Source of the DNA: Candidatus Jordarchaeia archaeon
GTDB taxonomy: Archaea > Asgardarchaeota > Jordiarchaeia > Jordiarchaeales > Jordiarchaeaceae
Direction: 5' to 3'
DNA: 64,000 nucleotides
NCBI GenBank assembly: GCA_029856435.1
Contig: JAHQXB010000063.1
Coordinates: 7,609-71,608, forward strand
The translations under genes were made by a program, and so were the position numbers. The notes beneath the pieces are model-generated. The model was given only the letters and a program-made list of their open reading frames with translations, was not told the origin of the DNA and made no database searches. Below are positions 1-64,000 of this stretch, in pieces (within the stretch, counting starts at the first letter, position 1; each line of letters begins with the position of its first letter).

Positions 1-967
1 CATATGTTTTGGGGGTTAAGGTCTTATAATCTTCTTTTAAGGAGAGCACATAAGCCTGCAATCTTGATTTTTCCTCAGTGAGCTGTAATTTTTTCTGGTA
101 AATTTCTTCCCTTTCGGCTGAAAGATTCTCCTCCCTTCTTTCCAAGCTGGAAATTTTTGTGCATGTAGAGTGGTATTCTTGTTCCTTCTTTTCAAGGGTT
201 GAGTTGAGTTCATTTATTTCGATATTTAGTTTTTCTAATTTTTCTGTGGCTTGGGATAGCTCCATTTCTTTGTGATATTTTTGGGAGAAGGGGTACATGG
301 CCTCCAGTTTATTTTTCATTTTTTCCAATTCAACCTTTTCCAAATATTTCTCTTTTCGAGTTTTTCGCAGTTTAAGCTCCTTTCTGGCTTCTCTCAATCT
401 ATTAGTCAAACCTTTAAGTTTCTCACTGTTTTCCCTGAGTTTTTCCCTACTTTCTTCGATTCTTTTCAGCACTGGGCCTAGCCCCAAAGCATCTACAAAG
501 AAATATGCGCGCTCATTTGGCTTGGCTTTAATAAGGTCGTTTACTTGTCCCTGGTGAATAGTTACCAAGGGATTGTCTGGATTTATACCCGCCTCGGATA
601 GCAACGTCCTCAAATTACGCAGGTGAATGGGTTTACCGTTTAGCCGGAATAGGGACTGTTTTCCCCTACGAAGAATGCGTGTTATTTCGACCATGTCGTC
701 GTCTAAATCTTTGAAAATTTTTTCTCCAAAGCTATTTTTGTTTTCTATTAATATGGATATTCTAGCAGCCTTTTCTCCGTGGCGTATATACCTATCAAGC
801 AATCTATGTCTCTCCCTTGCCAAAGATCCCAAAGCGATTCTAATTGCAGATATGATGGAAGTTTTTCCCGCCCCGTTACGACCCACTATTACATTGAAGG
901 TGGGTGAAATGGGTATCGAAATATTATCATAGGACATAAAGTTATTGAGTTTTAACTCCGTAATCAC
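1..967 (-). CDS. SMC/Rad50-family ATPase, N-terminal head plus the start of the coiled coil (partial; the 3' end lies beyond the window start)
   Basis: Absent from the ORF track because it runs off the edge. My own minus-strand translation from GTG at 967 gives VITELKLNNFMSYDNISIPISPTFNVIVGRNGAGKTSIISAIRIALGS...TIHQGQVNDLI. That covers an SMC-type first strand, a Walker A motif and a Q-loop, followed by K/E/L-rich coiled-coil-like sequence. The GTG start overlaps the TGA stop of the upstream gene (GTGA, 964-967). An alternative ATG lies at 937. Confidence 0.7.
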   Translation of the reverse strand, partial: MITELKLNNFMSYDNISIPISPTFNVIVGRNGAGKTSIISAIRIALGSLARERHRLLDRYIRHGEKAARISILIENKNSFGEKIFKDLDDDMVEITRILRRGKQSLFRLNGKPIHLRNLRTLLSEAGINPDNPLVTIHQGQVNDLIKAKPNERAYFFVDALGLGPVLKRIEESREKLRENSEKLKGLTNRLREARKELKLRKTRKEKYLEKVELEKMKNKLEAMYPFSQKYHKEMELSQATEKLEKLNIEINELNSTLEKKEQEYHSTCTKISSLERREENLSAEREEIYQKKLQLTEEKSRLQAYVLSLKEDYKTLTPKTY

Positions 968-2355
968 GTTCTCGCCCCCCACATCTTCTGCATTGTTTCC
1001 TGAACTCTCTGAAATCTTTCTCGCTTCTCCTTTAAAACTTCAATACTTTTTTCGGGATTGGAAGTTAAAAATTCAAAATTTTTAGCGATAACAATCTCAT
1101 CCTTTGACAATGAGTCCCCACTTTTTAGCTTTGTAAGGGTTAAGAGTAGCTTTTCATATTTTTTATCGTCAGTTACAACATCCTGAATGAGAGCTTGGTG
1201 AAGATACTCCTCCCTTTGCAAGTTTCTTTTTTGTAACTGTTTTTCCTTTATTCTCTGCGATATCTCCGTTCTCATGGAGTGAGCTATTTCCAAAAGTATG
1301 TCTGTTGTCAATATTTTTTTGCGTCTTTTCTCCAGTAAAACCACAGCTCTGGAGACGAGATTTTCAAGATCCGCCCCAGAAAAGTTTTCCGTAGCCTCAG
1401 AAACCTGAGGGAAATCTATGTTCTTCTCATACAAGAGGCGAGACAGCAATACATGTAAAATCTCCGTTCTTGCTCTAACATCAGGTAGGGGAACAGAGAT
1501 TACATCGTCAAACCTTGTCCAAACCGCTGCGTCCAACAAATCCGGCCTGTTGGTAGCTGCGATGACTAGTATGGAGTGGTCGCACAGATTGGTGGAGTCA
1601 AGTTCGTCCAATAAGGCGGAAAGGACGGAGGACTGGTTTAAATCTCTGCTTTGCGCCAGAGCATCAAAATTATCTATAAAAAGAATGAGAGGCTTATTGT
1701 TTAAGTCTTCGCGGATGAATTTGAAAATTGCACGAATACCTAGAACAGTATCCTCTGGTGACCCTGTTGCCAAACTCTTTAGAAAATCGACTATTGGGAC
1801 TTTAGACTCTTTGGCTAGGGCATAGACTAGAGTGGTCTTTCCAGTTCCAGGCCTCCCATATACAAGCAATTTGCCACCCAGCTTAATCCCCTTAGATTTA
1901 AGCTCCGAGATTTTTCTCAGAAAAGAAGCATAATCGTTCAACTGTGCCTTCACATCTTCATAGTTCCCAAGGTGGTCAAATGTGAACGTTAATTCTTCGG
2001 GTTTCTTTATTATAACTTGAAAATCGATCTCCTTTTCACGTTTAACTTTTTGTGTTAAAAGGATTGTTGCTGCTAACGCCCCAACAACTGAGTCAAACTT
2101 CTGGGATAAATTTCTTTTATCTTCCTCTAAACCGTTAATCCTATTAGTGAGGGTACTTATGCTCTTCTTAACAGTTTCTATTACTTCCCCACTCAGACCA
2201 CTAGCACCCTCCTTTAGGGAGTCTAATTCTTCTTTTAAACTGTTTATACTGTTTACAACATCCTCCAAGGCGTCCACAGTTGGAACATCTGCCAAGGGCG
2301 TTGAAATGTAGTCTACTCGTATTCTTCTACTCTTTGGCATGATGCATAACCCCAA
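964..2355 (-). CDS. AAA+ ATPase with an N-terminal coiled coil and a C-terminal helical extension; subfamily unassigned
   Basis: 463-aa ORF. Walker A is YGRPGTGKTT, Walker B is LILFIDNFDAL, and the second region of homology is ATNRPDLLDAAVWTRFD. Residues ~30-100 are heptad-like. No MIT domain or PAN-type OB region is recognisable. Confidence 0.8.
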   Translation of the reverse strand: MGLCIMPKSRRIRVDYISTPLADVPTVDALEDVVNSINSLKEELDSLKEGASGLSGEVIETVKKSISTLTNRINGLEEDKRNLSQKFDSVVGALAATILLTQKVKREKEIDFQVIIKKPEELTFTFDHLGNYEDVKAQLNDYASFLRKISELKSKGIKLGGKLLVYGRPGTGKTTLVYALAKESKVPIVDFLKSLATGSPEDTVLGIRAIFKFIREDLNNKPLILFIDNFDALAQSRDLNQSSVLSALLDELDSTNLCDHSILVIAATNRPDLLDAAVWTRFDDVISVPLPDVRARTEILHVLLSRLLYEKNIDFPQVSEATENFSGADLENLVSRAVVLLEKRRKKILTTDILLEIAHSMRTEISQRIKEKQLQKRNLQREEYLHQALIQDVVTDDKKYEKLLLTLTKLKSGDSLSKDEIVIAKNFEFLTSNPEKSIEVLKEKRERFQRVQETMQKMWGART

Positions 2356-29695: not shown

Positions 29696-30544
29696 GTGAG
29701 GTCTTTATTTTTTGGTTTTTGTTTGACGGTGGTTATTTTGGATAAGCGTATTGATAGGATCGATCGCAAGATTGATAAGGGTAGAATTAAAAGGAAGCGC
29801 TCAGAGGATTTGGAGACGACGCAAGCGGTTATTGATAAGAGAACCGCTATGGTTTTGTACGATTTGATTAATAGGGGTTTTTTGGATAGTATGAAGGGGG
29901 TTGTGGCTTCGGGTAAGGAGTCGAATGTTTATTGGGCGACTGCCGAGGAAAATGGGTTTACTCGGGATTTGGCGGTCAAGATTTATAGGACTTCGACTAT
30001 GGATTTTAAGAGGATTTGGGTTTACATTCAGGGGGATCCTCGCTTTACTAAGGTTAAGAGGGATACGCGTTCCATTGTTTATGCATGGGCTGAGAAGGAG
30101 TTCAAGAATCTTAGGTTGGCGGATGAGGCGGGTGTTAGAGTTCCCAAACCCGTTGTTTGGAGGGGTAACGTTCTCGTTATGGAGTTTATTGGTGAAAATG
30201 GAGTTTCTGCCCCTAGGCTGAGAGAGGCAATGGTTGAGGATCCGGAGCCCATTTTTAAAATTGTTTTTGATTATGTTGCTAAGCTTTATGAGAAGGCGGA
30301 ATTGGTGCATGCAGATCTTAGCGAGTATAATATTTTATATTGGGATGAGCCGGTAATAATTGATGTTTCTCAAGCGGTTCTTCTCAGCCACCCTTTAGCA
30401 TTAGATTTTTTGGCTCGTGATCTAAGGAATATTTTAAGATATTTTTCAAGTTTAGGAGTGGAGGTTCCCTCCTTGGAAGAAGCATATAAAAAAGTTACGG
30501 GTGAAGAATTGGTTGGAGACAAGAGAATTTATAAAAGTTCCTAA
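29696..30544 (+). CDS. rio1: RIO-type serine protein kinase Rio1
   Basis: SGKESNVYWA, AVKIYRTS, LVMEFIG, LVHADLSEYNILY and IIDVSQAV. The GTG start at 29696 gives a hydrophobic leader, so a TTG near 29738 (MDKRIDR...) may be the true start. Confidence 0.85.
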   Translation: MRSLFFGFCLTVVILDKRIDRIDRKIDKGRIKRKRSEDLETTQAVIDKRTAMVLYDLINRGFLDSMKGVVASGKESNVYWATAEENGFTRDLAVKIYRTSTMDFKRIWVYIQGDPRFTKVKRDTRSIVYAWAEKEFKNLRLADEAGVRVPKPVVWRGNVLVMEFIGENGVSAPRLREAMVEDPEPIFKIVFDYVAKLYEKAELVHADLSEYNILYWDEPVIIDVSQAVLLSHPLALDFLARDLRNILRYFSSLGVEVPSLEEAYKKVTGEELVGDKRIYKSS

Positions 30545-40003: not shown

Positions 40004-41374
40004 ATGACACAAACGCAAAAAGGAGAAAAATTTGAAGTCAAAGACCTAAAACTAGCACCAAGCGGACGAGCAACAATTGAGTGGGCAGAATCAAGAATGC
40101 CCGTGCTCATGCAAATAAGAGAGAGGTTCCGAAAAGAAAAACCGCTTAAAAACACCATAGTAGGAGCATGCCTCCATGTAACAAAAGAAACAGCAGTTCT
40201 TGCAAAAACCCTGAAAGCTGGAGGTGCAGAAGTCTACCTCTGTGCCTCAAACCCCCTATCAACACAGGACCATGTAGCCGCCGCACTGGTAGAAGAAGGA
40301 ATAAACACATTCGCCTGGAAAGGCATGGACTACGAAGGCTACTACCGAGCAATAGCCAACGTTATTAAGGGAGAACCGAACATCACACTAGACGACGGCG
40401 CCGACCTAGTATCAACCTTAATCAAACTCAAAAGAGGAGAAACCGGCGAGGAAATCAAGGTAGTTAAGAAAATTCTTGGAAGCCGAACAGACTGGGCGGA
40501 CAAAGTATGGGCCGGAGCCGAGGAGACCACAACGGGCGTAATCCGCCTTAGAGCCATGGCAAAAGATAACGTGCTACTATACCCAATTATAGCTACAAAT
40601 GATACCCCCACAAAATGGGAAACATAAACACCCCCCGTGTTTAAGCCCAAATTTGACAACCTGTGGGGAACTGGGCAAAGCACCATAGACGGCATACTGA
40701 GAGCAACAGCAGACCTTATCGCGGGCAAAATTTTTGTAGTCGCAGGGTATGGCCATTGCGGTAGAGGCGTAGCGCTAAGAGCTAAGGGGCTAGGAGCGAG
40801 AAGAGTCATCATATGCGAGATAAATCCACATCGAGCCTTAACAGCCGCCTTAGAGGGTATGGAAGTAATGCCCATGAGGGAAGCCGCAGAGGTGGGAGAC
40901 ATTTTCGTAACCGCCACAGGATGCAAGAACGTCATAAATGCAGAACATATGAAAAAGATGAAAAACGGAGCAGTGATGTGTAACACAGGTCACTTTAATG
41001 TGGAAATAAATATACCTGACTTGGAGAAAATCAGCGTTAGCAAGAGAGAGATAAGACCACTAGTCGATGAGTACACACTGGAGGATGGAAGAAAAATCTA
41101 CCTACTAGCCCAAGGCAGGCTTGTGAATCTAGCATGTGCTGAGGGACACCCAAGCGAAGTTATGGACATGAGCTTTTCTGATCAGGCTTTAGCTGTGGAG
41201 TGGATTGTTAAGAATAGGGATAAGCTGTCTGGGATGGGTAGTGTGGTTTTGGATATTCCTGAAGAGATTGATAGGACTGTTGCAGAATTGAAGTGTAAGG
41301 CTATGGGTCTTAGATTAGATGTTTTGACCCCTGAGCAGGAAGCTTATTTGTCGGGCTGGGCTGAAGGAACCTAG
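40004..41374 (+). CDS. ahcY: S-adenosyl-L-homocysteine hydrolase, interrupted by a 30-nt in-frame insertion carrying a TAA
   Basis: Track ORFs 40004-40627 and 40637-41374 are in the same frame. Together they give a full AhcY ([17 protein letters not shown], ...[36 protein letters not shown]). Confidence 0.9.
40616..40645 (+). other. 30-nt insertion with an in-frame TAA and an internal hairpin inside ahcY (candidate mRNA intron; the junction is ambiguous by 1-2 nt)
   Basis: tgggaaacataaacaccccccgtgtttaag. Removing it gives NDTPTK-PK-FDN, which is the canonical ND..TK..FDN spacing. Helices tggg/ccca, caaa/tttg and aaacat/gtgttt, with an aag bulge, are visible. Confidence 0.55.
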
Positions 41375-42055: not shown

Positions 42056-43174
42056 ATGGATACTGAGGAAAAGGTTCAGCGTGTCTTGCGTGGCTTGAGT
42101 GAGGTTATTACTGTTGAGGATTTGCGCAATTTGTTTGAGGTAGATAACCACCCTAAGGCTTACATAGGTGTTGAGCCTTCTGGATAAACCTTTTAGGCTT
42201 TCTAGGGTTCCAGAATATTTCATTTGGGCTGGGTGGTTTGGGCCTGGAAGGTTCAGGATTTGGTTCTTTGTGATGTGGATATGCATGTTCTCGAAGCGAC
42301 TTGGCATGCTAAGATTAATGACAAGTTTGGTGGAAACATGGATACCATACACACCTGTGCAAAGTATATTGAGCACTGTTTACAAGCGTTGGGTGTAGAT
42401 ATTGGTAGGGTTCGTTTTCCAAAGGCTGAGGATCTTATGGATAGTTTGGATTATTGGGCCACAGTGATAAACATTGCTAAAAACACTACGCTGGCACGTA
42501 TTAAGAGAGCTATGAGTATTATGGGCCGCAAAGTAGACGATGCTGAATCGGATTATTCAAAAACGCTTTATCCTTGCATACAAGTGGCTGACATCTTATA
42601 TGCTGGTTTTAAGCTGTGTCTGGGTGGGACTGACCAGAGAAGAGCTCACATATTGGCGAGGGAGTTGGCTCCTAAGTTCGGCTTGGATTGGAAGCCGGTA
42701 GCGATTCACACTCCTCTCCTCATAGGCTTGGAGGGATTATCGAGGATGGAGGTTGAAGGTGTGAATGAGGATGTTTTAATGGAGGCCAAGATGTCGAAAT
42801 CCAAACCTCAAACAGCAATTTTTATACATGATAAGCCAGAGGAAATCAGGAGTAAAATCTCTGCTGCCTTTTGCCCACCTAAACAGGTAGAATTCAATCC
42901 AATAATTGAAATAAATAGGCTTCTTCTTTTTTCCAGAGAAGGTTTCATTCTTCATGTGGAACGTGAGGAAAAATTTGGAGGGGATGTAGATTTTGAGAGC
43001 TTTGATGAATTGAAATCTGCCTACAGCGCCGGTAATCTCCATCCTCTGGACTTGAAACGGGCTACTGCAGAGGCACTCATTGCACTGCTGAAAAATGTTA
43101 GACAACATTTTGAAAAGAATAGTGAAGCCCGTAACCTTTTAGAAACATTAAAAAAGGCTACAGTGACCCGGTAA
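42056..43174 (+). CDS. tyrS: Tyrosyl-tRNA synthetase (archaeal type), interrupted by a 30-nt in-frame insertion carrying three stops
   Basis: A 43-codon ORF from ATG 42056 (MDTEEKVQRVL...KAYIGVEPSG) is in the same frame as track ORF 42224-43174 (KMSKS, FGGDV, LHPLDLKRATAEALI). By memory it is collinear with M. jannaschii TyrRS. Confidence 0.9.
42185..42214 (+). other. 30-nt insertion with three in-frame stops inside tyrS (candidate mRNA intron)
   Basis: taaaccttttaggctttctagggttccaga. Removing it gives EPSG-IF-HLGW. The upstream 6 nt tctgga (42179-42184) are complementary to the last 6 nt, tccaga (42209-42214). Confidence 0.6.
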
Positions 43175-43423: not shown

Positions 43424-43849
43424 ATGTCTTGTAATAATTTATATGAAGAATTGGAACGGTTGATATCAAAGCTCAGAACGATTTCTGAAAACGGTACCCC
43501 CATTGTTGTGGAGGGCTATAAAGACGAGAGAAGCCTAAGAGAACTGGGAGTTCAAGGAATAATTCTCAAGTTATCTGGAAGAAAACTCATAGAAATCGCT
43601 GAGGAACTTGCCAATTATGAGAACTTTCTGATTCTAACCGACTTTGACCGCAAAGGACAAAATATGGCGCTGCGCCTCTTGGAGTATTTAGATTACCACA
43701 AGGCGGAGTTGACGCTGAGTTTCAGGAGAAGATTTAAAAATTTAACCTCAAAAGTCACCTGCGACATAGAAGGATTAGCATCCTCATATTTCACTCTTCA
43801 AAACAAAAACAATGAAAACATGGAATTCGAAGTTGAAAAATTCTTTTAA
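43424..43849 (+). CDS. Small Toprim-domain protein (RNase M5/primase-like)
   Basis: 141-aa ORF. It has a Toprim Glu context (PIVVEGYKDERSL) and a DxD context (LILTDFDRKGQ). Confidence 0.6.
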   Translation: MSCNNLYEELERLISKLRTISENGTPIVVEGYKDERSLRELGVQGIILKLSGRKLIEIAEELANYENFLILTDFDRKGQNMALRLLEYLDYHKAELTLSFRRRFKNLTSKVTCDIEGLASSYFTLQNKNNENMEFEVEKFF

Positions 43850-44009
43850 GAATAAGTGGGAGAAAGACATAATTATATCCGAAAATACGTTAATGTTAAA
43901 AATGGCATATTATCATGCTAAAGCTTAATTAAATAAACAGTCACTCTTACCAAAACTTCAATCATTATACACCCTTATTATCTTATTTCATTATGGAGGT
44001 GACGCTTAC

Positions 44010-45242
44010 ATGGTTAATCGAAACGAGTTTAGCACAACAAAGTACATTATAAAAGCTAAAATAGAAGTAGACGGAGTTGTTGAAAAACCAGACGTTGTAG
44101 GAGCAATATTTGGACAAACCGAGGGACTGCTGGGTTCTGAACTTGACCTGCGGGAGCTACAGAGAACTGGGCGAATAGGTAGAATAAAAGTTACAATAGA
44201 ATCGCATGGAGGCAAATCAACGGGAACAGTAATAATCCCCTCAAGCCTTGACAAAGTGGAAACTGCAATGCTAGCAGCCGCTGTGGAATCCGTTGACAGA
44301 GTAGGGCCATGTACCGCTCATGCAACCTTAGAGATAATTGAAGATGTACGAGAGGTTAAAAGAAGAAAGATTGTTCAGAGAGCAGCAGATATTATAAGAA
44401 AATGGTCCGAAGAGGTGTCGCCTGAAAGTCAACAGCTCACAGACGAGGTTTTGGATGCAGTTCGAGTAGCTGAAATCACTAAGTACGGTCCTGAAGAATT
44501 ACCAGCGGGACCAGCCATAGACAGCTCTGACGATATAATAATAGTTGAAGGGCGGGCGGATGTTCTTAATCTTTTGAGATGTGGTTATAAGAACGTTATA
44601 GCGATGGAAGGAACAAGTATACCAAAGACTATAATCGATCTTAGCAAGAAAAAAACGATCACAGCCTTTCTAGATGGGGATAGGGGAGGGGACTTGATTC
44701 TGAAGGAATTACAACAAGTAGCAGATATAGATTATGTGGCGCGAGCTCCTCAGGGAAGGGAGGTTGAAGAACTCACCCAAAAGGAAGTGGTTAAGGCCCT
44801 GAGAAACAGATTACCTGTAGAGCAATTAGAAGCAGAAGAACCCAAAAAGAAGGAGAAGGAGAAAAGAAGAGAGCAGGAAAAAGAAGAAAAAAAGGAAAGA
44901 GAGTTGGAAGAAAAAAAACCCAAAAGGATGGAAATTCCTCCCAAAATTAAGCTTCCAGAACAGATTCTGAGCTACCTGCACAACATCAAGGCTTCAAATA
45001 AGGCTGTACTTTTGGGGAAAAATTTTGAATTAATGGAAGAAATGGAGGTATCTTCGTTAGCAGAGCGTCTGAAAGAAGTGGACTCGGTTAGAGCCATCAT
45101 TTTTGACGGAATTATTACTCAGAGGTTGGTGGACCTAGCTCAGGATAAAGGGGTGGAGTATATTTTAGGGGTAAGACAAGAGAATGTTACAAAGAAACCC
45201 TTAAATTTAAAGATTGTAGAGTTCAACGAGGTAATAACTTAA
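44010..45242 (+). CDS. dnaG: Archaeal DnaG-like primase (Toprim; exosome-associated type)
   Basis: N-terminus KYIIKAKIEVDGVVEKPDVVGAIFGQTEGLLG and Toprim motifs (IIIVEGRADVLNL, FLDGDRGGDLI). A GGAGGTGA Shine-Dalgarno motif lies upstream. Confidence 0.85.
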   Translation: MVNRNEFSTTKYIIKAKIEVDGVVEKPDVVGAIFGQTEGLLGSELDLRELQRTGRIGRIKVTIESHGGKSTGTVIIPSSLDKVETAMLAAAVESVDRVGPCTAHATLEIIEDVREVKRRKIVQRAADIIRKWSEEVSPESQQLTDEVLDAVRVAEITKYGPEELPAGPAIDSSDDIIIVEGRADVLNLLRCGYKNVIAMEGTSIPKTIIDLSKKKTITAFLDGDRGGDLILKELQQVADIDYVARAPQGREVEELTQKEVVKALRNRLPVEQLEAEEPKKKEKEKRREQEKEEKKERELEEKKPKRMEIPPKIKLPEQILSYLHNIKASNKAVLLGKNFELMEEMEVSSLAERLKEVDSVRAIIFDGIITQRLVDLAQDKGVEYILGVRQENVTKKPLNLKIVEFNEVIT

Positions 45243-45281: not shown

Positions 45282-46403
45282 TTGAAGGAAAAAAGTGAAA
45301 AGATTCGACATATTTCTACTTCCGTCCGTGAAGAGCCTTTAAAAAAGAAGGAACGAATGCAATATCTATCTGTGGTGGAGCTACAGCCATCAGGTTTTCC
45401 TTTCCGGCTTGTGGGAGAGGAGCCCCCTATAGCCTTATTGACCGACGACACTGAACTGTTCCAAGCATACGCTAGGGAACAGTGGGCGGGTATTTGTGTT
45501 AAGAAGGGGGATTACCTATTTGACCAACTGGTTTTCCCAGATTTCGCCTTTAAGGTTTCCGACGCTCAGCCAGCTCGGGGAAGGATAGGTTTTTCCACAC
45601 GTTTCATTCTTAAGAGGAAACCCTTCAGTGAGGAGAAGAGACCGTCAATTCGTTTCTCAGATGTTATAGGGCAAAACGAAGCTAAAAGCAAGTGTCTGAT
45701 AATTAAAAAATATTTGGAAAATCCGAAAGCCTTTGGGGACTGGGCGCCGAGAAACATTCTGTTCTATGGGCCTCCAGGAACGGGGAAAACAATGCTGGCT
45801 CAAGCACTGGCCAACGAAACAAATGCGCCCTTCTATTTAATTAAATCCACAGATTTGATAGGAGTTAATGTCGGTGATGCTTCAAGAAGGATACACTCTG
45901 TCTTCAAAATAGCGTCGGACAATGCGCCTAGCGTTATATACCTTGACGAAATTGACGCCATAGGGTTAGATCGCAGCTTCCAAAACATAAGAGGGGACGT
46001 ATCAGAGGTAGTTAATGCTTTGTTGGGGGAGCTGGACGGATTAACCGCGAATTTTGGCGTTGTATGCATAGGAGCCACAAATAATCCTATCATGCTAGAT
46101 AAGGGAATCAGAAGCAGATTCGAAGAGGAAATAGAGTTCAAACTTCCCAACGCTGAAGAACGGGAACAAATTCTCAGACTCTACATATCAAAAATGCCCT
46201 TGCCGGTAAAAGTGGACATTAAAAAGATAGTTAGAAACACTGAAGGCTTCTCTGGAAGAGACCTTAAAGACAAAATCCTTAAAGCAGCGCTACACAAAGC
46301 TATACTACAAGAGGAAAAATGTGTAACCCAAGACATAATAGACGCCGTACTTAAACAACTCAATGACAAATCACCAAAAGAAAAACCCAAAATGTTCACT
46401 TGA
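45282..46403 (+). CDS. AAA ATPase with a Cdc48-N-like domain and a single AAA module
   Basis: TTG start. ILFYGPPGTGKTMLAQALA, VIYLDEIDAIG and GATNNPIMLDKGIRSRFE. Confidence 0.8.
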   Translation: MKEKSEKIRHISTSVREEPLKKKERMQYLSVVELQPSGFPFRLVGEEPPIALLTDDTELFQAYAREQWAGICVKKGDYLFDQLVFPDFAFKVSDAQPARGRIGFSTRFILKRKPFSEEKRPSIRFSDVIGQNEAKSKCLIIKKYLENPKAFGDWAPRNILFYGPPGTGKTMLAQALANETNAPFYLIKSTDLIGVNVGDASRRIHSVFKIASDNAPSVIYLDEIDAIGLDRSFQNIRGDVSEVVNALLGELDGLTANFGVVCIGATNNPIMLDKGIRSRFEEEIEFKLPNAEEREQILRLYISKMPLPVKVDIKKIVRNTEGFSGRDLKDKILKAALHKAILQEEKCVTQDIIDAVLKQLNDKSPKEKPKMFT

Positions 46404-51361: not shown

Positions 51362-52363
51362 ATGATTTACGAGAAGCTTGAAAATGACATGGTAAAATGC
51401 GGGATCTGTCCTCATCGCTGTTTAATTAAACCCGGAAAGAGAGGAAAATGTAAAACAAGAGAAAACAGAGAGGGGGTTCTCTACTCCCTTGTTTATTCTT
51501 CAATATCTGCGATGGCTAATGATCCCATTGAGAAAAAACCTCTGTTCCACTTTTATCCGGGTAGCACTGCCTTTTCTATATCAACAGTGGGTTGTACTTT
51601 TCATTGTCTCCACTGCCAAAACTGGAGCATCTCTCAAGCAGAGCCCGAATCTGGCTTAACTAGGGAGTTCCCACCAGAAGAGATTGTTTCAGCAGCTAAG
51701 AGAAGTGGTAGCCGTTCCATTGCATATACCTATAATGAGCCCTTCGTTTTCTACGAATTCGTCTATGATACTGCAAAGATTGCAAAGGAAAACAACATAA
51801 AAAATATTCTGGTTACAAATGGATATGCTACACCTGAGGCCATAGAAAAAATAGCCCCTTTAATAGATGCAGCAAACATTGATGTGAAAGCAATGAGCGA
51901 AGAATTTTACAAAGAAGTATGTGGGGCGCGGCTTCAACCAGTCTTAGACGCCGTGCTCCTCATGAAGGAGAAGGGCATTCATGTAGAAATTACGTATCTG
52001 ATAATCCCCCAGAAAAATGATAGTGCAGAGGAAATAAAGAGATTTGTAGAATGGGTTAAGGGTAATTTGGGACTGGATATACCCATCCATTTCTCAAGGT
52101 TTTATCCCCATTACAAAATGACAAATCTTAATCCCACCCCAGTTCAAACAGTCATTAAAGCCAGAGAAATCGGGCAAAAAGCAGGGCTGCACTACGTCTA
52201 TTGCGGGAATATACCGGGGCAGGGAGAGAACACGTATTGCTACAATTGTAACCAATTAATAGTGGGACGATGGGGATACTCAATAGAAGAGTACAAACTT
52301 GCCAAAGGCAACACGTGCCCAAACTGCGGAACGAAGATAAACATGATTGGAGGAGGGGGATAG
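51362..52363 (+). CDS. AmmeMemoRadiSam-system-type radical SAM enzyme (PflA-related)
   Basis: CGICPHRC...GKCKTR, EKKPLFHFYPG and the radical SAM cluster CTFHCLHCQNW. The track ORF starts at 51311, but the ATG at 51362 (MIYEKLEN...) is more likely. Confidence 0.8.
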   Translation: MIYEKLENDMVKCGICPHRCLIKPGKRGKCKTRENREGVLYSLVYSSISAMANDPIEKKPLFHFYPGSTAFSISTVGCTFHCLHCQNWSISQAEPESGLTREFPPEEIVSAAKRSGSRSIAYTYNEPFVFYEFVYDTAKIAKENNIKNILVTNGYATPEAIEKIAPLIDAANIDVKAMSEEFYKEVCGARLQPVLDAVLLMKEKGIHVEITYLIIPQKNDSAEEIKRFVEWVKGNLGLDIPIHFSRFYPHYKMTNLNPTPVQTVIKAREIGQKAGLHYVYCGNIPGQGENTYCYNCNQLIVGRWGYSIEEYKLAKGNTCPNCGTKINMIGGGG

Positions 52364-61899: not shown

Positions 61900-63051
61900 T
61901 TAACCTATACCTATACAATTACCTATTCCAGCAACAATAACCGTGTCGCCGGGCTTGGTGCGTTCAAGAATCATGTTTTTTACCCGCTCAGCGGCTTTAT
62001 AGGCACCATCATAAATTTCCTTCTTCATAGGGGTCAAAGCTTCTTCAACAGACATTTTAATTATAACTGCATCCACAGGAACTTTATGACTCGTTACCTC
62101 CTGCTCTATCTTAAACTTGTCAACACCCGGACCGCCAATAGCAGCCCCAACACCCTCCACTACTTTACCAGTCTTCTCTCCTTCAAATTTCAACCCAGCG
62201 TCAATCATAATAACTCTAGCAATTTTCCCATTAGCCTCCTTGATAAGATTAACAATAGCATCACCCGGCTTTCCAACACGACCCCCCGGACCGATAGCCC
62301 TCACAATTAACACATTTCTATCCTCAAAAGTTATGGGAGTTAGGGAAATGTCCTCAGCAATCTCACTAGACTCGGCATTCCCATCCTTCGAAAATTCGTT
62401 TTTAAAAATAGAAGCAACGAGAGCACCAGCACCGTCCCCTATAGGCTGACCCTCATTAAAGGCCTTCAAAGCGTTATAATAAGCCTTAGCATACTTCATA
62501 ATAAATGAAAGCGCAACCTGAACACTCACAATCATAGCATAATTATTAGTCTCCTTACCCATGTAGTAGAAGTGCCTAATAACCAAAAACATCTGACGCA
62601 AAGCCATAGCAGCCTCAAAGGTCATATCAATGTTAGCCCTCTGATCACGATCCGCAGCCGGCGCCAACCTAGCAATAAGATCATCAAACCTAGACTTCCT
62701 CACATCAAGCAAATGTTCAAGCCTCTTAAAAACACCCGAAGGATCACGCTCCACAGGCTCAATTAAAACAAACTCCATATAGTCCTCCACTATGGGCGCA
62801 GGATCCTTCTCCGGCTTACCCAACTCCCTAATCATCCTAATAGTAGTCTTTTTAGCCTCCTCAGACCACTTCTCAAGCTGAGTTATAACCTCCCGAATCT
62901 GCGCCAAATACTGCATACTCTGAACCTTCAAAATTAAACCACTAAAAATCATAAAGATAAAGAAAAGGAATATCAGAATATTCATGATAAGAATGTATGG
63001 GTCAGAATAGCCAAGCGGCAACTGCAACGAGGGAAACAACATAACCATCAC
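61900..63051 (-). CDS. Conserved archaeal membrane-anchored protein (DUF1512-like)
   Basis: 383-aa ORF with an N-terminal TM helix followed by a large soluble domain. The family call is from memory of DUF1512 architecture only. Confidence 0.4.
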   Translation of the reverse strand: MMVMLFPSLQLPLGYSDPYILIMNILIFLFFIFMIFSGLILKVQSMQYLAQIREVITQLEKWSEEAKKTTIRMIRELGKPEKDPAPIVEDYMEFVLIEPVERDPSGVFKRLEHLLDVRKSRFDDLIARLAPAADRDQRANIDMTFEAAMALRQMFLVIRHFYYMGKETNNYAMIVSVQVALSFIMKYAKAYYNALKAFNEGQPIGDGAGALVASIFKNEFSKDGNAESSEIAEDISLTPITFEDRNVLIVRAIGPGGRVGKPGDAIVNLIKEANGKIARVIMIDAGLKFEGEKTGKVVEGVGAAIGGPGVDKFKIEQEVTSHKVPVDAVIIKMSVEEALTPMKKEIYDGAYKAAERVKNMILERTKPGDTVIVAGIGNCIGIG

Positions 63052-63195
63052 ACAACACTAAACCTTCACATTTGCAAAACTATTAAAACACACACATAAA
63101 AGATTTATAAGCATTGCCAGAAAACACAATCCAAAATACTCCTGAGAAAATAAAAGGCATAGAAAAGTAAAAGGCAAAGTTAAGAAAAAGTGGAT

Positions 63196-63379
63196 TGGTC
63201 CCGCAGGCCGGACTTTCAAATATAGTGTATAGTGCACTATAAACTTTGAACCAGCGACGTTGGGGCTGAGTACTATGCGCACCCAGTTATCCCGGTGTCT
63301 GAGTGCCTACTGGGGTAAGCCACACTTAACGAGTGCAGCTCTACAGCCGGGCACTCTAGCCAGTCTGAGTTACTGCGGG
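63196..63379 (-). tRNA. tRNA-Tyr(GUA) with three introns (37/38, variable loop, T-loop), a C1-G72 pair and an encoded CCA
   Basis: Hand-folded cloverleaf elements:
- acceptor CCCGCAG (63379-63373) / CTGCGGG (63206-63200), then A and CCA;
- D arm ACTC-AGACTGGCTA-GAGT;
- anticodon stem CCCGG/CCGGG with loop CTGTAGA (anticodon 63344-63342);
- variable loop AT..GTC;
- T arm GCTGG-TTCAAA..T-CCGGC.
Introns: 63339-63296 (44 nt), 63288-63259 (30 nt) and 63244-63213 (32 nt). The spliced 3' half (AUGUC GCUGG UUCAAAU CCGGC) matches M. jannaschii tRNA-Tyr as I recall it. Confidence 0.9.
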
Positions 63380-63498
63380 ACCTTCAGGGTATCCTTTTCA
63401 GTTATGATTTCTAGATGTTTATTGTCAGATAAATTTTTCGTATTTGCGGATGCGGATTTAACTTGTATATTTTTTAAGGGTTGGTTGGGAGATGTGTT

Positions 63499-64000
63499 TT
63501 AGGTTAGAGCTTTGGCTAGGGTTCCCGCTATTTCTACGACGGATATTGGCGAGGGGATAGTGGTTGTTCCAATGACGGTGTAGGCTCCGGCGGTGTATAT
63601 TTTTTTGAGGGCGTTGTCTACAAGGACGGGGTGGGTGCATGCGGCGACTATTTTTTTTGCGCCTTTCTTTTTGAGGGTTTCGATGGTTTTTGCTATGGTT
63701 CCTCCTGTGGAGATGATGTCGTCTATTATTACTATGTCTCTGTTTTTCACTTCTATTTCTCTGGTTGTTATTTCAACTTCTGTGGAGCTGAGTCTCTTTT
63801 TTTCGAGTACATCGTATTCTGTTCCTAGTTGTTCTGCGGCTAGTTTGGCCCATTGTTCGGCTTCTTCGTCTGGTCCTATGATTAGTGGTTTTTGTAGTGA
63901 TAGGTTTGCTCCTATGTAGCTTGCTATGTCTGGAATTGCTGTGAGGTTTTTTGCGGGGATTTTGAATATTTTTCTCATGTCGTCTACTCTGTGGAGGTGC
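63499..64000 (-). CDS. Second ribose-phosphate pyrophosphokinase paralogue (C-terminal part; the 5' end lies beyond the window end)
   Basis: The track ORF shows the PRPP loop IVIIDDIISTGGTI. The frame stays open upstream of the listed Met to the window edge (…HLHRVDDMRKIF…). Confidence 0.8.
   Translation of the reverse strand, partial: HLHRVDDMRKIFKIPAKNLTAIPDIASYIGANLSLQKPLIIGPDEEAEQWAKLAAEQLGTEYDVLEKKRLSSTEVEITTREIEVKNRDIVIIDDIISTGGTIAKTIETLKKKGAKKIVAACTHPVLVDNALKKIYTAGAYTVIGTTTIPSPISVVEIAGTLAKALT

What the first reader, a model, noticed from the sequence alone, without database searches (positions are those of the whole stretch)
63196..63379. tRNA-Tyr(GUA) has three introns, retains the archaeal C1-G72 identity pair, and superficially mimics an RNase P motif
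After removing 44 nt (37/38), 30 nt (variable loop, between AT and GTC) and 32 nt (T-loop), the gene gives a 75-nt tRNA plus CCA. Its 3' half (AUGUC-GCUGG-UUCAAAU-CCGGC) is nearly identical to M. jannaschii tRNA-Tyr as I remember it. C1-G72 is the known archaeal/eukaryal TyrRS identity element.

The T-loop intron is an AT-rich hairpin. Its junction with the exon creates GAAAGTCCGG, which could be mistaken for RNase P CR-I.

The cognate synthetase gene (tyrS) in the same window is itself interrupted.
Basis: partly seen in the sequence, partly recalled or inferred. Interest (0 to 1): 0.65.

Follow-up and report, generated by a model that had tools for sequence, protein, structure and literature searches.

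The report
Three-intron tRNA-Tyr gene in Asgard archaeon
This is a genuine tyrosine tRNA gene broken by three short introns, which is already known to be typical of its Asgard archaeal lineage; the less expected result is that its partner enzyme gene (tyrS) and a neighbouring gene (ahcY) carry the same kind of mini-intron inside their protein-coding sequence.

Summary
Window 63196-63379 (minus strand) encodes a 184-nt pre-tRNA-Tyr(GUA). Removing 44 nt (position 37/38), 30 nt (45/46) and 32 nt (59/60) leaves a canonical 75-nt tRNA plus encoded CCA, with C1-G72 and A73. Standard finders miss the gene; ARAGORN accepts the spliced form. Seven orthologues from Freyarchaeota/Jordarchaeia (Asgard) assemblies share the exons but carry one, two or three of the inserts, which fixes the boundaries of introns 2 and 3. 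Rfam's tRNA model accepts the one- and two-intron orthologues (43-48 bits). [quoted passage not shown] The RNase P resemblance is a chance 10-mer. No RNA data cover the locus.

The kind is published: Valentin-Alvarado et al. 2024 report introns in 92-95% of tRNA genes in this group, up to four per gene, and three-intron tRNA-Tyr in Atabeyarchaeia. So this is a new member of a known kind.

The linked remark led further. tyrS and ahcY each carry a conserved 27-31-nt BHB mini-intron inside the coding sequence. Some versions shift the frame, and excision by the BHB rule restores the protein exactly. In the searched literature, cbf5 was the only such intron reported inside an archaeal coding sequence.

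The parts
63341..63379 (-). tRNA-Tyr exon 1: acceptor 5' strand (C1 at 63379), D-arm, anticodon stem 5' strand, and loop nucleotides 32-37 with anticodon GUA at 63344-63342
   Evidence: Identical in all 7 orthologues.
63297..63340 (-). Intron 1, 44 nt, canonical position 37/38. BHB of hBH type: outer helix = anticodon stem, central helix CUGU/UCAG paired 3 of 4, bulges AG^A and AC^A, inner helix weak.
   Evidence: Present in all 8 genes at 43-47 nt. The central helix is 4 of 4 (CUGU/ACAG) in L001. The published tRNAscan boundaries for the L001 gene agree.
63289..63296 (-). Exon 2: A38, anticodon stem 3' strand CCGGG, A44, U45
63259..63288 (-). Intron 2, 30 nt, position 45/46 (variable loop). 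Relaxed BHB of HBh' type: central helix CGGG/CCCA paired 3 of 4, bulges AU^A and AC^G, 7-8-bp inner hairpin, no outer helix.
   Evidence: Absent from L001 and L006. Present in L004, where the central helix is 4 of 4 and one inner-helix pair is changed on both sides (C-G to U-A).
63245..63258 (-). Exon 3: G46 U47 C48, T-stem 5' strand GCUGG, T-loop U54-A59
63213..63244 (-). Intron 3, 32 nt, position 59/60 (T-loop), 28% G+C. Strict hBHBh': outer helix = T-stem (5 bp), central helix UUCA/UGAA 4 of 4, bulges AA^G and AG^U, inner helix of two U.U then 7 bp.
   Evidence: p about 5e-4; P of central helix 0.92. Absent from L001, L004 and L006. Sequence variation among copies is confined to the hairpin loop plus one U-A to U.G change in the central helix.
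63196..63212 (-). Exon 4: U60, T-stem 3' strand CCGGC, acceptor 3' strand CUGCGGG (G72), discriminator A73 (63199), encoded CCA (63198-63196)
   Evidence: CCA is encoded in 7 of the 8 genes and absent in L004.
63185..63189 (-). Run of five T, 6 nt after CCA: likely archaeal oligo-T terminator
   Evidence: Read from the sequence. The functional assignment rests on general knowledge of archaeal termination and was not tested.
63208..63217 (-). GAAAGUCCGG across the intron 3/exon 4 junction: the supposed RNase P CR-I look-alike
   Evidence: Present in the sequence. No RNase P match at gathering score or at E<=10, so it is a chance 10-mer.
42186..42215 (+). Linked observation: 30-nt BHB mini-intron inside tyrS (gene 42056-43174). 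Central helix CUGG/CCAG 4 of 4, bulges AU^A and AA^U, 6-bp inner helix. Carries three in-frame stops.
40622..40651 (+). Linked observation: 30-nt BHB mini-intron inside ahcY (gene 40004-41374). Central helix UGGG/CCCA 4 of 4, bulges AA^A and AA^U, inner helix 8 of 9. Carries an in-frame TAA.

Best explanation
Window 63196-63379 (minus strand) is a functional tRNA-Tyr(GUA) gene of an uncultured Freyarchaeota/Jordarchaeia (Asgard) archaeon. It is interrupted by three protein-spliced (BHB-type) introns at positions 37/38, 45/46 and 59/60.

Shown here:
- the exon/intron anatomy;
- a canonical spliced cloverleaf;
- intron boundaries fixed by orthologues that lack intron 2 and/or intron 3;
- BHB geometry at each junction, with the cut after the second nucleotide of each 3-nt bulge.

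Inferred from established archaeal tRNA biology and from the literature on Asgard enzymes:
- The gene is transcribed as one precursor that ends at the T-run after the encoded CCA.
- The splicing endonuclease EndA, reported as the broad-specificity (alpha-beta)2 type with the L1 loop in other Asgard lineages, cuts both bulges of each motif.
- RtcB-type ligase joins the exons.
- The mature 78-nt tRNA is charged by the archaeal-type TyrRS through C1-G72, A73 and the anticodon.

Intron 2's central helix uses nucleotides 40-43, which intron 1's motif needs as the anticodon stem. The two motifs cannot form together, so splicing probably needs refolding or a set order. The order could not be determined.
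For: - ARAGORN and Rfam find nothing in the unedited window. ARAGORN calls the spliced 78-mer tRNA-Tyr(gta).
- Seven orthologues all come from Freyarchaeota/Jordarchaeia assemblies or related metagenome contigs.
  - L001 and L006 have only intron 1.
  - L004 has introns 1 and 2.
  - L002, L003, L005 and L007 have all three, like the window.
- Rfam's tRNA model matches L001, L006 and L004 end to end at 48.2, 44.8 and 43.2 bits (gathering score 29), at exactly the coordinates I delimited.
- On the spliced alignment, 100% of cells pair, against 48% or less when the partners are slid. Three T-stem pairs change on both sides across the intron 3 site.
- BHB registers at the independently fixed boundaries are given. 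Intron-shuffle controls reach the observed pairing in about 5e-4 of trials for intron 3 and 2e-4 for intron 2.
- The weak central helices in the window (3 of 4) are perfect in relatives: intron 1 in L001, intron 2 in L004.
- Published table: the L001 gene is listed as tRNA-Tyr GTA, 125 nt, with one 47-nt intron at the same place. Atabeyarchaeia tRNA-Tyr genes have three introns.
- The four Asgard genomes analysed in PMC5829648 (Odin-, Loki-, Thor- and Heimdallarchaeota) carry (alpha-beta)2 EndA with the L1 loop.
Against: - There is no RNA-level evidence. Four metatranscriptome runs gave zero reads or contigs on the locus.
- Intron 1's BHB in the window is no better than shuffles (13%) and is not predicted by thermodynamic folding. 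It rests on its canonical position and on conservation.
- Intron 2 has no outer helix, and its central helix competes with the anticodon stem.
- EndA and RtcB genes were not looked for in this genome; only 64 kb is available.
- Whether the genome holds another, uninterrupted tRNA-Tyr gene is unknown.
Confidence: 0.9

Rival explanations
1. The locus is a decaying tRNA-Tyr pseudogene that has accumulated insertions, and the real tRNA-Tyr is encoded elsewhere.
For: Standard finders reject the locus. Only 64 kb of the genome is visible, so a second copy cannot be excluded.
Against: All 75 exon positions give a perfect cloverleaf. Exon 1, exon 2 and both acceptor strands are identical across 8 assemblies, while T-stem changes are compensatory. 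The inserts sit exactly at BHB registers. The complete Freyarchaeia genome lists the orthologue as its only tRNA-Tyr.
Confidence: 0.04
2. Only the 37/38 insert is a true intron. The variable-loop and T-loop inserts stay in the RNA as expansions or are removed by some other nuclease pathway.
For: Intron 2 has only a relaxed BHB without an outer helix. There are no RNA data.
Against: A 32-nt hairpin inside the T-loop would destroy the T-loop/D-loop contact that the conserved G18 G19 and U54 U55 C56 imply. Intron 3 has the best BHB of the three. Relaxed HBh' motifs are known substrates of L1-loop EndA (PMC5829648). Orthologues without these inserts have the same exons.
Confidence: 0.03
3. The locus encodes another RNA class, such as an RNase P RNA fragment or an sRNA, rather than a tRNA.
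For: The 10-mer GAAAGUCCGG resembles RNase P CR-I.
Against: There is no RNase P or other credible Rfam match, even at E<=10. The orthologous loci are called tRNA by Rfam. By eye, intron 1 has no C box or D box.
Confidence: 0.01
4. For the linked tyrS and ahcY inserts: they are not spliced from the mRNA. Instead they are skipped by ribosome hopping (as in T4 gene 60: take-off codon, stop, hairpin) or read through, or the genes are pseudogenes.
For: In tyrS, the take-off-like GGA is followed directly by UAA and a hairpin. Metatranscriptome contigs of relatives still contain the inserts, and no spliced joint was seen.
Against: - The same BHB rule restores a 362-363-aa TyrRS in 7 loci, although the insert is 30 or 31 nt long.
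- The product EPSGLFH(L/I)G matches the EPSGLFHIG of uninterrupted homologues. Among the 120 listed homologues, 106 of the 107 with a recognisable motif have this two-residue spacing. Hopping to GGU would give EPSG-SRIF-HLG.
- The U/C change at the last exon nucleotide is synonymous only after splicing (UUA or CUA, both Leu).
- The ahcY inserts have no matched take-off and landing codons.
- In L008, the only 31-nt register with a BHB is also the only one that restores [14 protein letters not shown].
- Both genes are conserved and essential-type, and are split in the same way in independent assemblies.
Confidence: 0.08

Closest known systems
Multi-intron tRNA genes of Freyarchaeia and Atabeyarchaeia (Valentin-Alvarado et al. 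2024, Nat Commun, PMC11291895, Supplementary Data 4)
   Same: Same or sister lineage. In those genomes 92-95% of tRNA genes have introns, over half have several, often at non-canonical positions, with up to four per gene. Both Atabeyarchaeia tRNA-Tyr(GTA) genes are listed with three observed introns. The Freyarchaeia tRNA-Tyr listed there is my orthologue L001.
   Different: The published Freyarchaeia tRNA-Tyr has one intron and the window's has three. The 1/2/3-intron series among close relatives of a single gene, and the BHB anatomy of each junction, are not described in the text I read.
Multiple-intron tRNAs of Thermoproteales (Sugahara et al. 2008, Mol Biol Evol, as cited in PMC11291895; known to me from memory, not read here)
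   Same: Up to three BHB introns per tRNA, at non-canonical positions including the T-arm. Relaxed BHB motifs. Host with heteromeric broad-specificity EndA.
   Different: A different phylum (TACK/Thermoproteota rather than Asgard). No sequence relationship was tested.
[quoted passage not shown]
   Same: Three ectopic introns in one tRNA gene, including one in the T-arm.
   Different: A eukaryotic nuclear gene. One intron lies in the D-arm rather than the variable loop. The endonuclease context differs.
The conserved 37/38 intron of eukaryotic tRNA-Tyr (PMC12168002, abstract seen)
   Same: tRNA-Tyr carries a 37/38 intron in every orthologue seen here, as it does almost universally in eukaryotes.
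   Different: No evidence here for a modification-guiding role. The sequences are unrelated, and common ancestry was not tested.
cbf5 pre-mRNA BHB intron of Crenarchaeota (Watanabe 2002; Yokobori 2009, PMC2738675)
   Same: This is the closest precedent for the tyrS and ahcY inserts: a short BHB intron inside an archaeal protein-coding sequence, presumably cut by the tRNA splicing endonuclease, with gain and loss among relatives.
   Different: Different genes (tyrS, ahcY) and a different phylum (Asgard). At least three introns occur in two genes within a few kb. As of 2020, cbf5 was described as the only such case inside a coding sequence (PMC7714728).

Membership tests
Archaeal/eukaryal-type tRNA-Tyr | Canonical cloverleaf with anticodon GUA after intron removal | tested here: met
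   ARAGORN on the spliced 78-mer. Rfam RF00005 scores 43-48 bits on orthologues with near-identical exons. 100% of cells pair on the alignment.
Archaeal/eukaryal-type tRNA-Tyr | C1-G72 first pair, A73 discriminator, and a short (5-nt) variable loop rather than the long bacterial arm | tested here: met
   Read directly from the sequence: C1 at 63379, G72, A73 at 63199, variable loop AUGUC. That these are TyrRS identity elements is from my own knowledge and was not tested.
Archaeal BHB (endonuclease-spliced) intron | Two 3-nt bulges separated by a 4-bp helix, with both cuts after the second bulge nucleotide | tested here: met
   Intron 3 is a strict hBHBh' with the central helix 4 of 4. Introns 1 and 2 have the central helix 3 of 4 in the window and 4 of 4 in L001 and L004 respectively. 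All have correctly placed 3-nt bulges.
Archaeal BHB (endonuclease-spliced) intron | Flanking helices h and h' (full motif) or at least one of them (relaxed hBH or HBh') | tested here: met
   Intron 1: outer helix 5 bp, inner helix weak (hBH). Intron 2: inner helix 7-8 bp, no outer helix (HBh'). Intron 3: outer helix 5 bp and inner helix 7 bp. So two of the three are relaxed motifs.
Archaeal BHB (endonuclease-spliced) intron | Excision and exon ligation seen at the RNA level | tested here: inconclusive
   Four metatranscriptome runs gave no reads or contigs on the tRNA locus. Nothing supports or contradicts splicing.
Archaeal BHB (endonuclease-spliced) intron | Host encodes a broad-specificity EndA able to cut relaxed, non-canonical motifs | not tested
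   Only literature. (alpha-beta)2 EndA with the L1 loop is reported for four other Asgard lineages (PMC5829648). Two K01170 endonuclease genes are listed for Atabeyarchaeia-1. This organism's genome beyond the window is not available.
RNase P RNA | Match to the RNase P covariance models (CR-I to CR-V in their structural context) | tested here: not met
   No match at gathering score over the whole window or at E<=10 over 63000-63600.
Self-splicing group I or group II intron | Ribozyme core of hundreds of nucleotides | tested here: not met
   The inserts are 30-44 nt and have no Rfam match.
Split or permuted tRNA gene | Exons at separate loci or in permuted order | tested here: not met
   All four exons are collinear within 184 nt.
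BHB intron in an archaeal protein-coding gene (cbf5 type), for tyrS and ahcY | BHB motif whose excision restores a conserved, full-length reading frame | tested here: met
   tyrS in 7 loci, with inserts of 30 or 31 nt. ahcY intron 1 in 4 loci, 30 or 27 nt. ahcY intron 2 in L008 and L009 only, with a unique register. RNA-level splicing was not observed.

The most novel reading that the evidence does not exclude
In the Freyarchaeota/Jordarchaeia Asgard lineage, BHB introns are not confined to tRNAs. The tRNA splicing endonuclease would also have to splice 27-31-nt mini-introns out of the mRNAs of core housekeeping genes: tyrS across the clade, and ahcY at two sites, one of them polymorphic. Tyrosine decoding would then depend on that enzyme twice, for the tRNA and for its synthetase. 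Public annotations of these genes are systematically truncated. This would extend protein-gene BHB introns well beyond cbf5 and place them in Asgard archaea, the closest known archaeal relatives of eukaryotes. Any functional coupling between the tRNA-Tyr and tyrS introns is much less likely (about 0.1), because nearly all tRNAs in the group have introns.
Probability: 0.8. Interest if true: 0.8.

Novelty: new member of a known kind. Interest (0 to 1): 0.5.

Why it matters
**For the tRNA itself**
- Routine tools (ARAGORN, Rfam) miss the gene, so genomes of this group will seem to lack tRNA-Tyr and will score lower on tRNA-based completeness.
- The 1/2/3-intron series in a single orthologous gene is a compact natural data set on how BHB introns are gained and lost at positions 45/46 and 59/60.
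- Introns 1 and 2 have mutually exclusive motifs, which gives a testable case of ordered or refolding-dependent splicing.

**For the linked result**
- If the tyrS and ahcY mini-introns are spliced as predicted, endonuclease-dependent mRNA splicing in archaea is not a cbf5 curiosity. It would be a recurrent feature of an Asgard class.
- That bears on ideas about how protein-gene introns and the eukaryotic TSEN endonuclease and HAC1/XBP1-type mRNA splicing arose.
- It also means database entries for these proteins need correcting. All 11 close TyrRS homologues are N-terminally truncated.

Tried and rejected
1. **RNA evidence.** Runs X25-X28 gave no reads on the tRNA locus. X25 and X29 contigs of relatives at 82-94% identity cover ahcY and tyrS but keep the inserts. 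The raw-read runs X26 and X27 gave nothing. So there is no evidence either way.
2. **Splicing order from folding.** The RNAfold ensembles predict intron 3's motif (P 0.92) and partly intron 2's (0.36-0.47), but never intron 1's. They also give the mature anticodon stem only P 0.2, so the method is uninformative here.
3. **BHB geometry as a stand-alone detector.** About 1.2% of all registers in the precursor pass a loose filter, and thousands pass in the window. It is useful only together with independently fixed boundaries.
4. **Window-wide scan for BHB plus ORF fusion.** Strict versions gave 5 and 9 candidates. Apart from ahcY, those inspected were rejected:
   - 1023-1072 (minus strand) joins an AAA ATPase to a separate SMC/Rad50-like gene.
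   - 51630-51673, 29850-29908 and 45587-45627 give nonsense left exons or break intact Pfam domains.
   - The rest lie at gene boundaries or in a promoter region.
5. **Other overlapping or adjacent ORF pairs in the window.** They are distinct genes with complete domains. The Toprim pair at 43424-45242 is two separate genes.
6. **Mobile-element idea.** None of the five inserts recurs in the window or resembles another.
7. **Other interrupted tRNAs.** ARAGORN in intron mode finds none in the window.
8. **C/D-box guide in intron 1.** By eye there is no RUGAUGA or CUGA box.
9. **Source lookup.** Exact-sequence lookup of the neighbouring 383-aa protein found nothing.

Full report
**1. What is at the coordinates**

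The plus strand of 63196-63379 is the reverse complement of a tRNA-like sequence. On the minus strand the 184 nt read: CCCGCAG-UA-ACUC-AGACUGGCUA-GAGU-G-CCCGG-CUGUAG [44 nt] A-CCGGG-AU [30 nt] GUC-GCUGG-UUCAAA [32 nt] U-CCGGC-CUGCGGG-A-CCA.

ARAGORN finds no tRNA anywhere in the 64-kb window, and Rfam reaches no gathering score. After removing the three stretches, ARAGORN calls a 78-nt tRNA-Tyr(gta) with a regular cloverleaf. It has 7-, 4-, 5- and 5-bp stems, U8, A14, G18 G19, U33, G37, a G15-C48 pair, U54 U55 C56, C1-G72, A73 and an encoded CCA.

**2. Where the window comes from, and the natural experiment**

A pattern taken from exon 1 hit five genome assemblies. Four are labelled Candidatus Freyarchaeota or Jordarchaeia (Asgard archaea), including the complete chromosome CP147778.1; the fifth is an unclassified uncultured archaeon. 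It also hit two JGI metagenome contigs. DNA runs holding the window's sequence are sediment and hot-spring metagenomes.

The eight genes have identical exons 1 and 2 and identical acceptor strands, but differ in how many inserts they carry.

| Loci | Inserts |
|---|---|
| L001, L006 | 37/38 only (47 and 43 nt) |
| L004 (Ca. Jordarchaeum madagascariense) | 37/38 and 45/46 |
| L002, L003, L005, L007, window | all three |

Genes without the T-loop insert read GC(A/U)(A/G)G-UUCAAAU-C(U/C)(U/G)GC, and genes without the variable-loop insert read GGGA-CGUC. So the boundaries of introns 2 and 3 are fixed by comparison, not by assumption.

Rfam's tRNA model matches the one- and two-intron orthologues over model positions 1-71, at exactly the coordinates I delimited (48.2, 44.8 and 43.2 bits; gathering score 29). 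It is the third insert that takes the window's copy below detection.

On the spliced alignment every cell of the cloverleaf pairs, against 48% or less when the partners are slid. Three T-stem pairs change on both sides, across the intron 3 site.

**3. Are they BHB introns?**

I used the rule that both cuts fall after the second nucleotide of a 3-nt bulge and that the bulges flank a 4-bp helix. With that rule, the independently fixed boundaries give the following.

| Intron | Outer helix | Central helix | Bulges | Inner helix | Type |
|---|---|---|---|---|---|
| 3 | T-stem, 5 bp | UUCA/UGAA, 4 of 4 | AA^G, AG^U | two U.U, then 7 bp | strict hBHBh' |
| 2 | none | CGGG/CCCA, 3 of 4 (CCCG, 4 of 4 in L004) | AU^A, AC^G | 7-8 bp | relaxed HBh' |
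| 1 | anticodon stem | CUGU/UCAG, 3 of 4 (ACAG, 4 of 4 in L001) | AG^A, AC^A | weak | hBH |

Shuffling each intron while keeping the exons reaches the observed central-plus-inner-helix pairing in 0.05% (intron 3), 0.02% (intron 2) and 13% (intron 1) of trials.

BHB geometry alone is a loose criterion: about 1.2% of all registers in the precursor pass a simple filter. The weight therefore rests on three independently fixed boundaries all landing on such registers. Variation among copies fits a structural constraint. In intron 3 it is confined to the hairpin loop plus one U-A to U.G change in the central helix. In intron 2 of L004, one inner-helix pair is changed on both sides (C-G to U-A) and two G.U pairs become Watson-Crick.

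**4. Mechanism**

Shown: the anatomy above. The rest is inferred from established archaeal tRNA processing.
- One precursor is made, ending at the T5 run 6 nt after CCA.
- EndA cleaves in both bulges of each motif.
- An RtcB-type ligase joins the exons.
- No CCA addition is needed, because CCA is encoded.

Relaxed hBH and HBh' motifs need the broad-specificity enzyme. The four Asgard genomes analysed in PMC5829648 (Odin-, Loki-, Thor- and Heimdallarchaeota) have the (alpha-beta)2 EndA with the L1 loop, and two endonuclease genes are listed for Atabeyarchaeia-1. I could not check this organism's own genes.

One structural consequence can be read from the sequence. The central helix of intron 2 uses nucleotides 40-43, which are the 3' strand of the anticodon stem that intron 1's motif needs. 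The two motifs exclude each other, so refolding or a set order is required. Folding of all splicing intermediates did not resolve the order.

There is no RNA-level evidence. Metatranscriptomes from the hot-spring studies gave nothing on the locus.

**5. The RNase P remark**

GAAAGUCCGG lies at 63217-63208, across the intron 3/exon 4 junction.

The T-arm GCUGG-UUCAAAU-CCGGC is indeed identical to the M. jannaschii-derived tRNA-Tyr sequence printed in three papers.

**6. Comparison with what is known**

Valentin-Alvarado et al. 2024 (PMC11291895) report that 92-95% of tRNA genes in complete Freyarchaeia and Atabeyarchaeia genomes have introns. [quoted passage not shown] Their Supplementary Data 4 lists up to four introns per gene and tRNA-Tyr(GTA) with three observed introns in both Atabeyarchaeia genomes. 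It lists the Freyarchaeia tRNA-Tyr as 125 nt with one 47-nt intron, which is my L001.

Three-intron tRNAs are also known from Thermoproteales (from memory, cited in that paper) and from the red alga C. merolae (PMC9602550). The window's gene is therefore a new member of a published kind. What it adds is the 1/2/3-intron series for one gene.

The intron count does not track TyrRS similarity. The genome with 87% TyrRS identity to the window has one intron, and the one with 82% has two. That suggests both gain and loss, although TyrRS identity is only a crude proxy for relatedness.

**7. The interrupted tyrS, followed up**

tyrS (42056-43174, + strand) reads EPSG*TF*AF*GSRIFHLG. The BHB rule picks one register, 42186-42215. 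Its central helix is CUGG/CCAG (4 of 4), its bulges are AU^A and AA^U, and its inner helix is 6 bp. Excision gives a 362-aa protein with EPSG-LF-HLG.

- All 11 close homologues in the protein database (80-96% identity) are called N-terminally truncated (273-336 aa). All listed homologues at 57% identity or less cover at least 94% of the query at about 350-380 aa.
- In seven loci the insert is 30 nt (two loci) or 31 nt (five loci). The 31-nt versions shift the frame. The same rule still restores a 362-363-aa frame every time. The hairpin sequence varies while its pairing is kept. The U/C difference at the last exon nucleotide is synonymous only after splicing (UUA or CUA, both Leu).
- Uninterrupted homologues read EPSGLFHIGW. 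Among the 120 listed homologues, 106 of the 107 with a recognisable motif have the two-residue spacing. A naive in-frame deletion would give IF, and hopping or read-through would add residues.

**8. Two more protein-gene introns**

ahcY (40004-41374) is split by an in-frame TAA inside the conserved TK-xx-FDN motif. Register 40622-40651 has a central helix UGGG/CCCA (4 of 4), bulges AA^A and AA^U, and an inner helix of 8 of 9 pairs. Excision restores [18 protein letters not shown]. It is the best register in all four loci examined. In Jordarchaeum the insert is 27 nt, and the single inner-helix mismatch is repaired.

L008 and L009 carry a further 31-nt insert near codon 375 of ahcY, which is absent from the window, L013, L015 and L016. 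Of the 15 possible registers, only one has a BHB, and only that one restores [14 protein letters not shown].

Window-wide scans and Pfam checks of other adjacent ORF pairs found no further convincing case.

In the library searched, cbf5 of Crenarchaeota is the only BHB intron reported inside an archaeal coding sequence, with one 5'-UTR case in Haloferax. The Jordarchaeia genome paper does not mention introns at all, and the Freyarchaeia paper mentions them only in tRNA genes. RNA evidence is lacking. Assembled metatranscriptome contigs of relatives still contain the inserts, and raw-read runs had no reads.

**9. Verdict**

The tRNA is an ordinary member of a recently published phenomenon, so on its own it is of modest interest. 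That evidence is purely in silico. It is the part a specialist would find surprising and the part that most deserves an RNA-level test.

Noticed in passing
window 42186-42215 (+), within tyrS 42056-43174: A 30-nt BHB mini-intron inside the TyrRS coding sequence, conserved (30 or 31 nt) in all 7 loci examined. Excision restores EPSGLFH(L/I)G, exactly as in uninterrupted homologues.
   Followed up: yes
window 40622-40651 (+), within ahcY 40004-41374: A 30-nt BHB mini-intron with an in-frame TAA inside the conserved TK-xx-FDN motif of S-adenosylhomocysteine hydrolase. Also present in L016 and L017 (30 nt) and L015 (27 nt, with the inner-helix mismatch repaired).
   Followed up: yes
L008 344-374, and the same site in L009: A second, frameshifting 31-nt BHB insert in ahcY (near codon 375), present only in these two Freyarchaeota assemblies and absent from the window, L013/L015 and L016. 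A single register both forms a BHB and restores [14 protein letters not shown].
   Followed up: yes
Proteins P0001-P0011; loci L008-L017: Public gene calls for TyrRS in this clade are all N-terminally truncated (273-336 aa instead of about 362 aa), with a separate 43-74-aa upstream ORF. ahcY is called as two proteins (207 aa plus 244-245 aa). These are systematic annotation errors caused by the mini-introns.
   Followed up: partly
L002, L003 and L007, the roughly 20 nt directly upstream of the tRNA 5' end (L002 about 961-980, minus strand): A direct duplicate of the tRNA's first 10-11 nt (GGTCCCGCAGTAA followed by TTTTA or CTTTA) sits just upstream of the gene. It is absent from the window and L005. 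It could be a small tandem duplication, an integration scar or another tiny insert.
   Followed up: no
window 63356-63350 with 63307-63301 (minus strand; precursor positions 24-30 and 73-79): A perfect 7-bp complementarity between the 3' part of intron 1 (GGCACUC) and the D-stem/anticodon-stem strand (GAGUGCC). It dominates the predicted minimum-energy fold and excludes intron 1's BHB. The segment is conserved in 7 of the 8 orthologues. Its significance is unknown and it may be chance.
   Followed up: partly
window about 40633, in a metatranscriptome contig of run X29: A relative at about 82% identity has the ahcY insert shorter by 2 nt (28 nt), another length that is not a multiple of three. 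A loose end at 40667 is another organism's uninterrupted ahcY reading TK-YL-FDNRY.
   Followed up: partly
window 63100-63125 (minus strand), and the same region in all orthologous loci: A conserved TATA-like element (GCTTATAAA) and leader lie downstream of the tRNA, ahead of the DUF1512 gene (61900-63051). Synteny of tRNA-Tyr with this promoter-like element holds in all seven orthologous loci, including the one-intron relatives.
   Followed up: no
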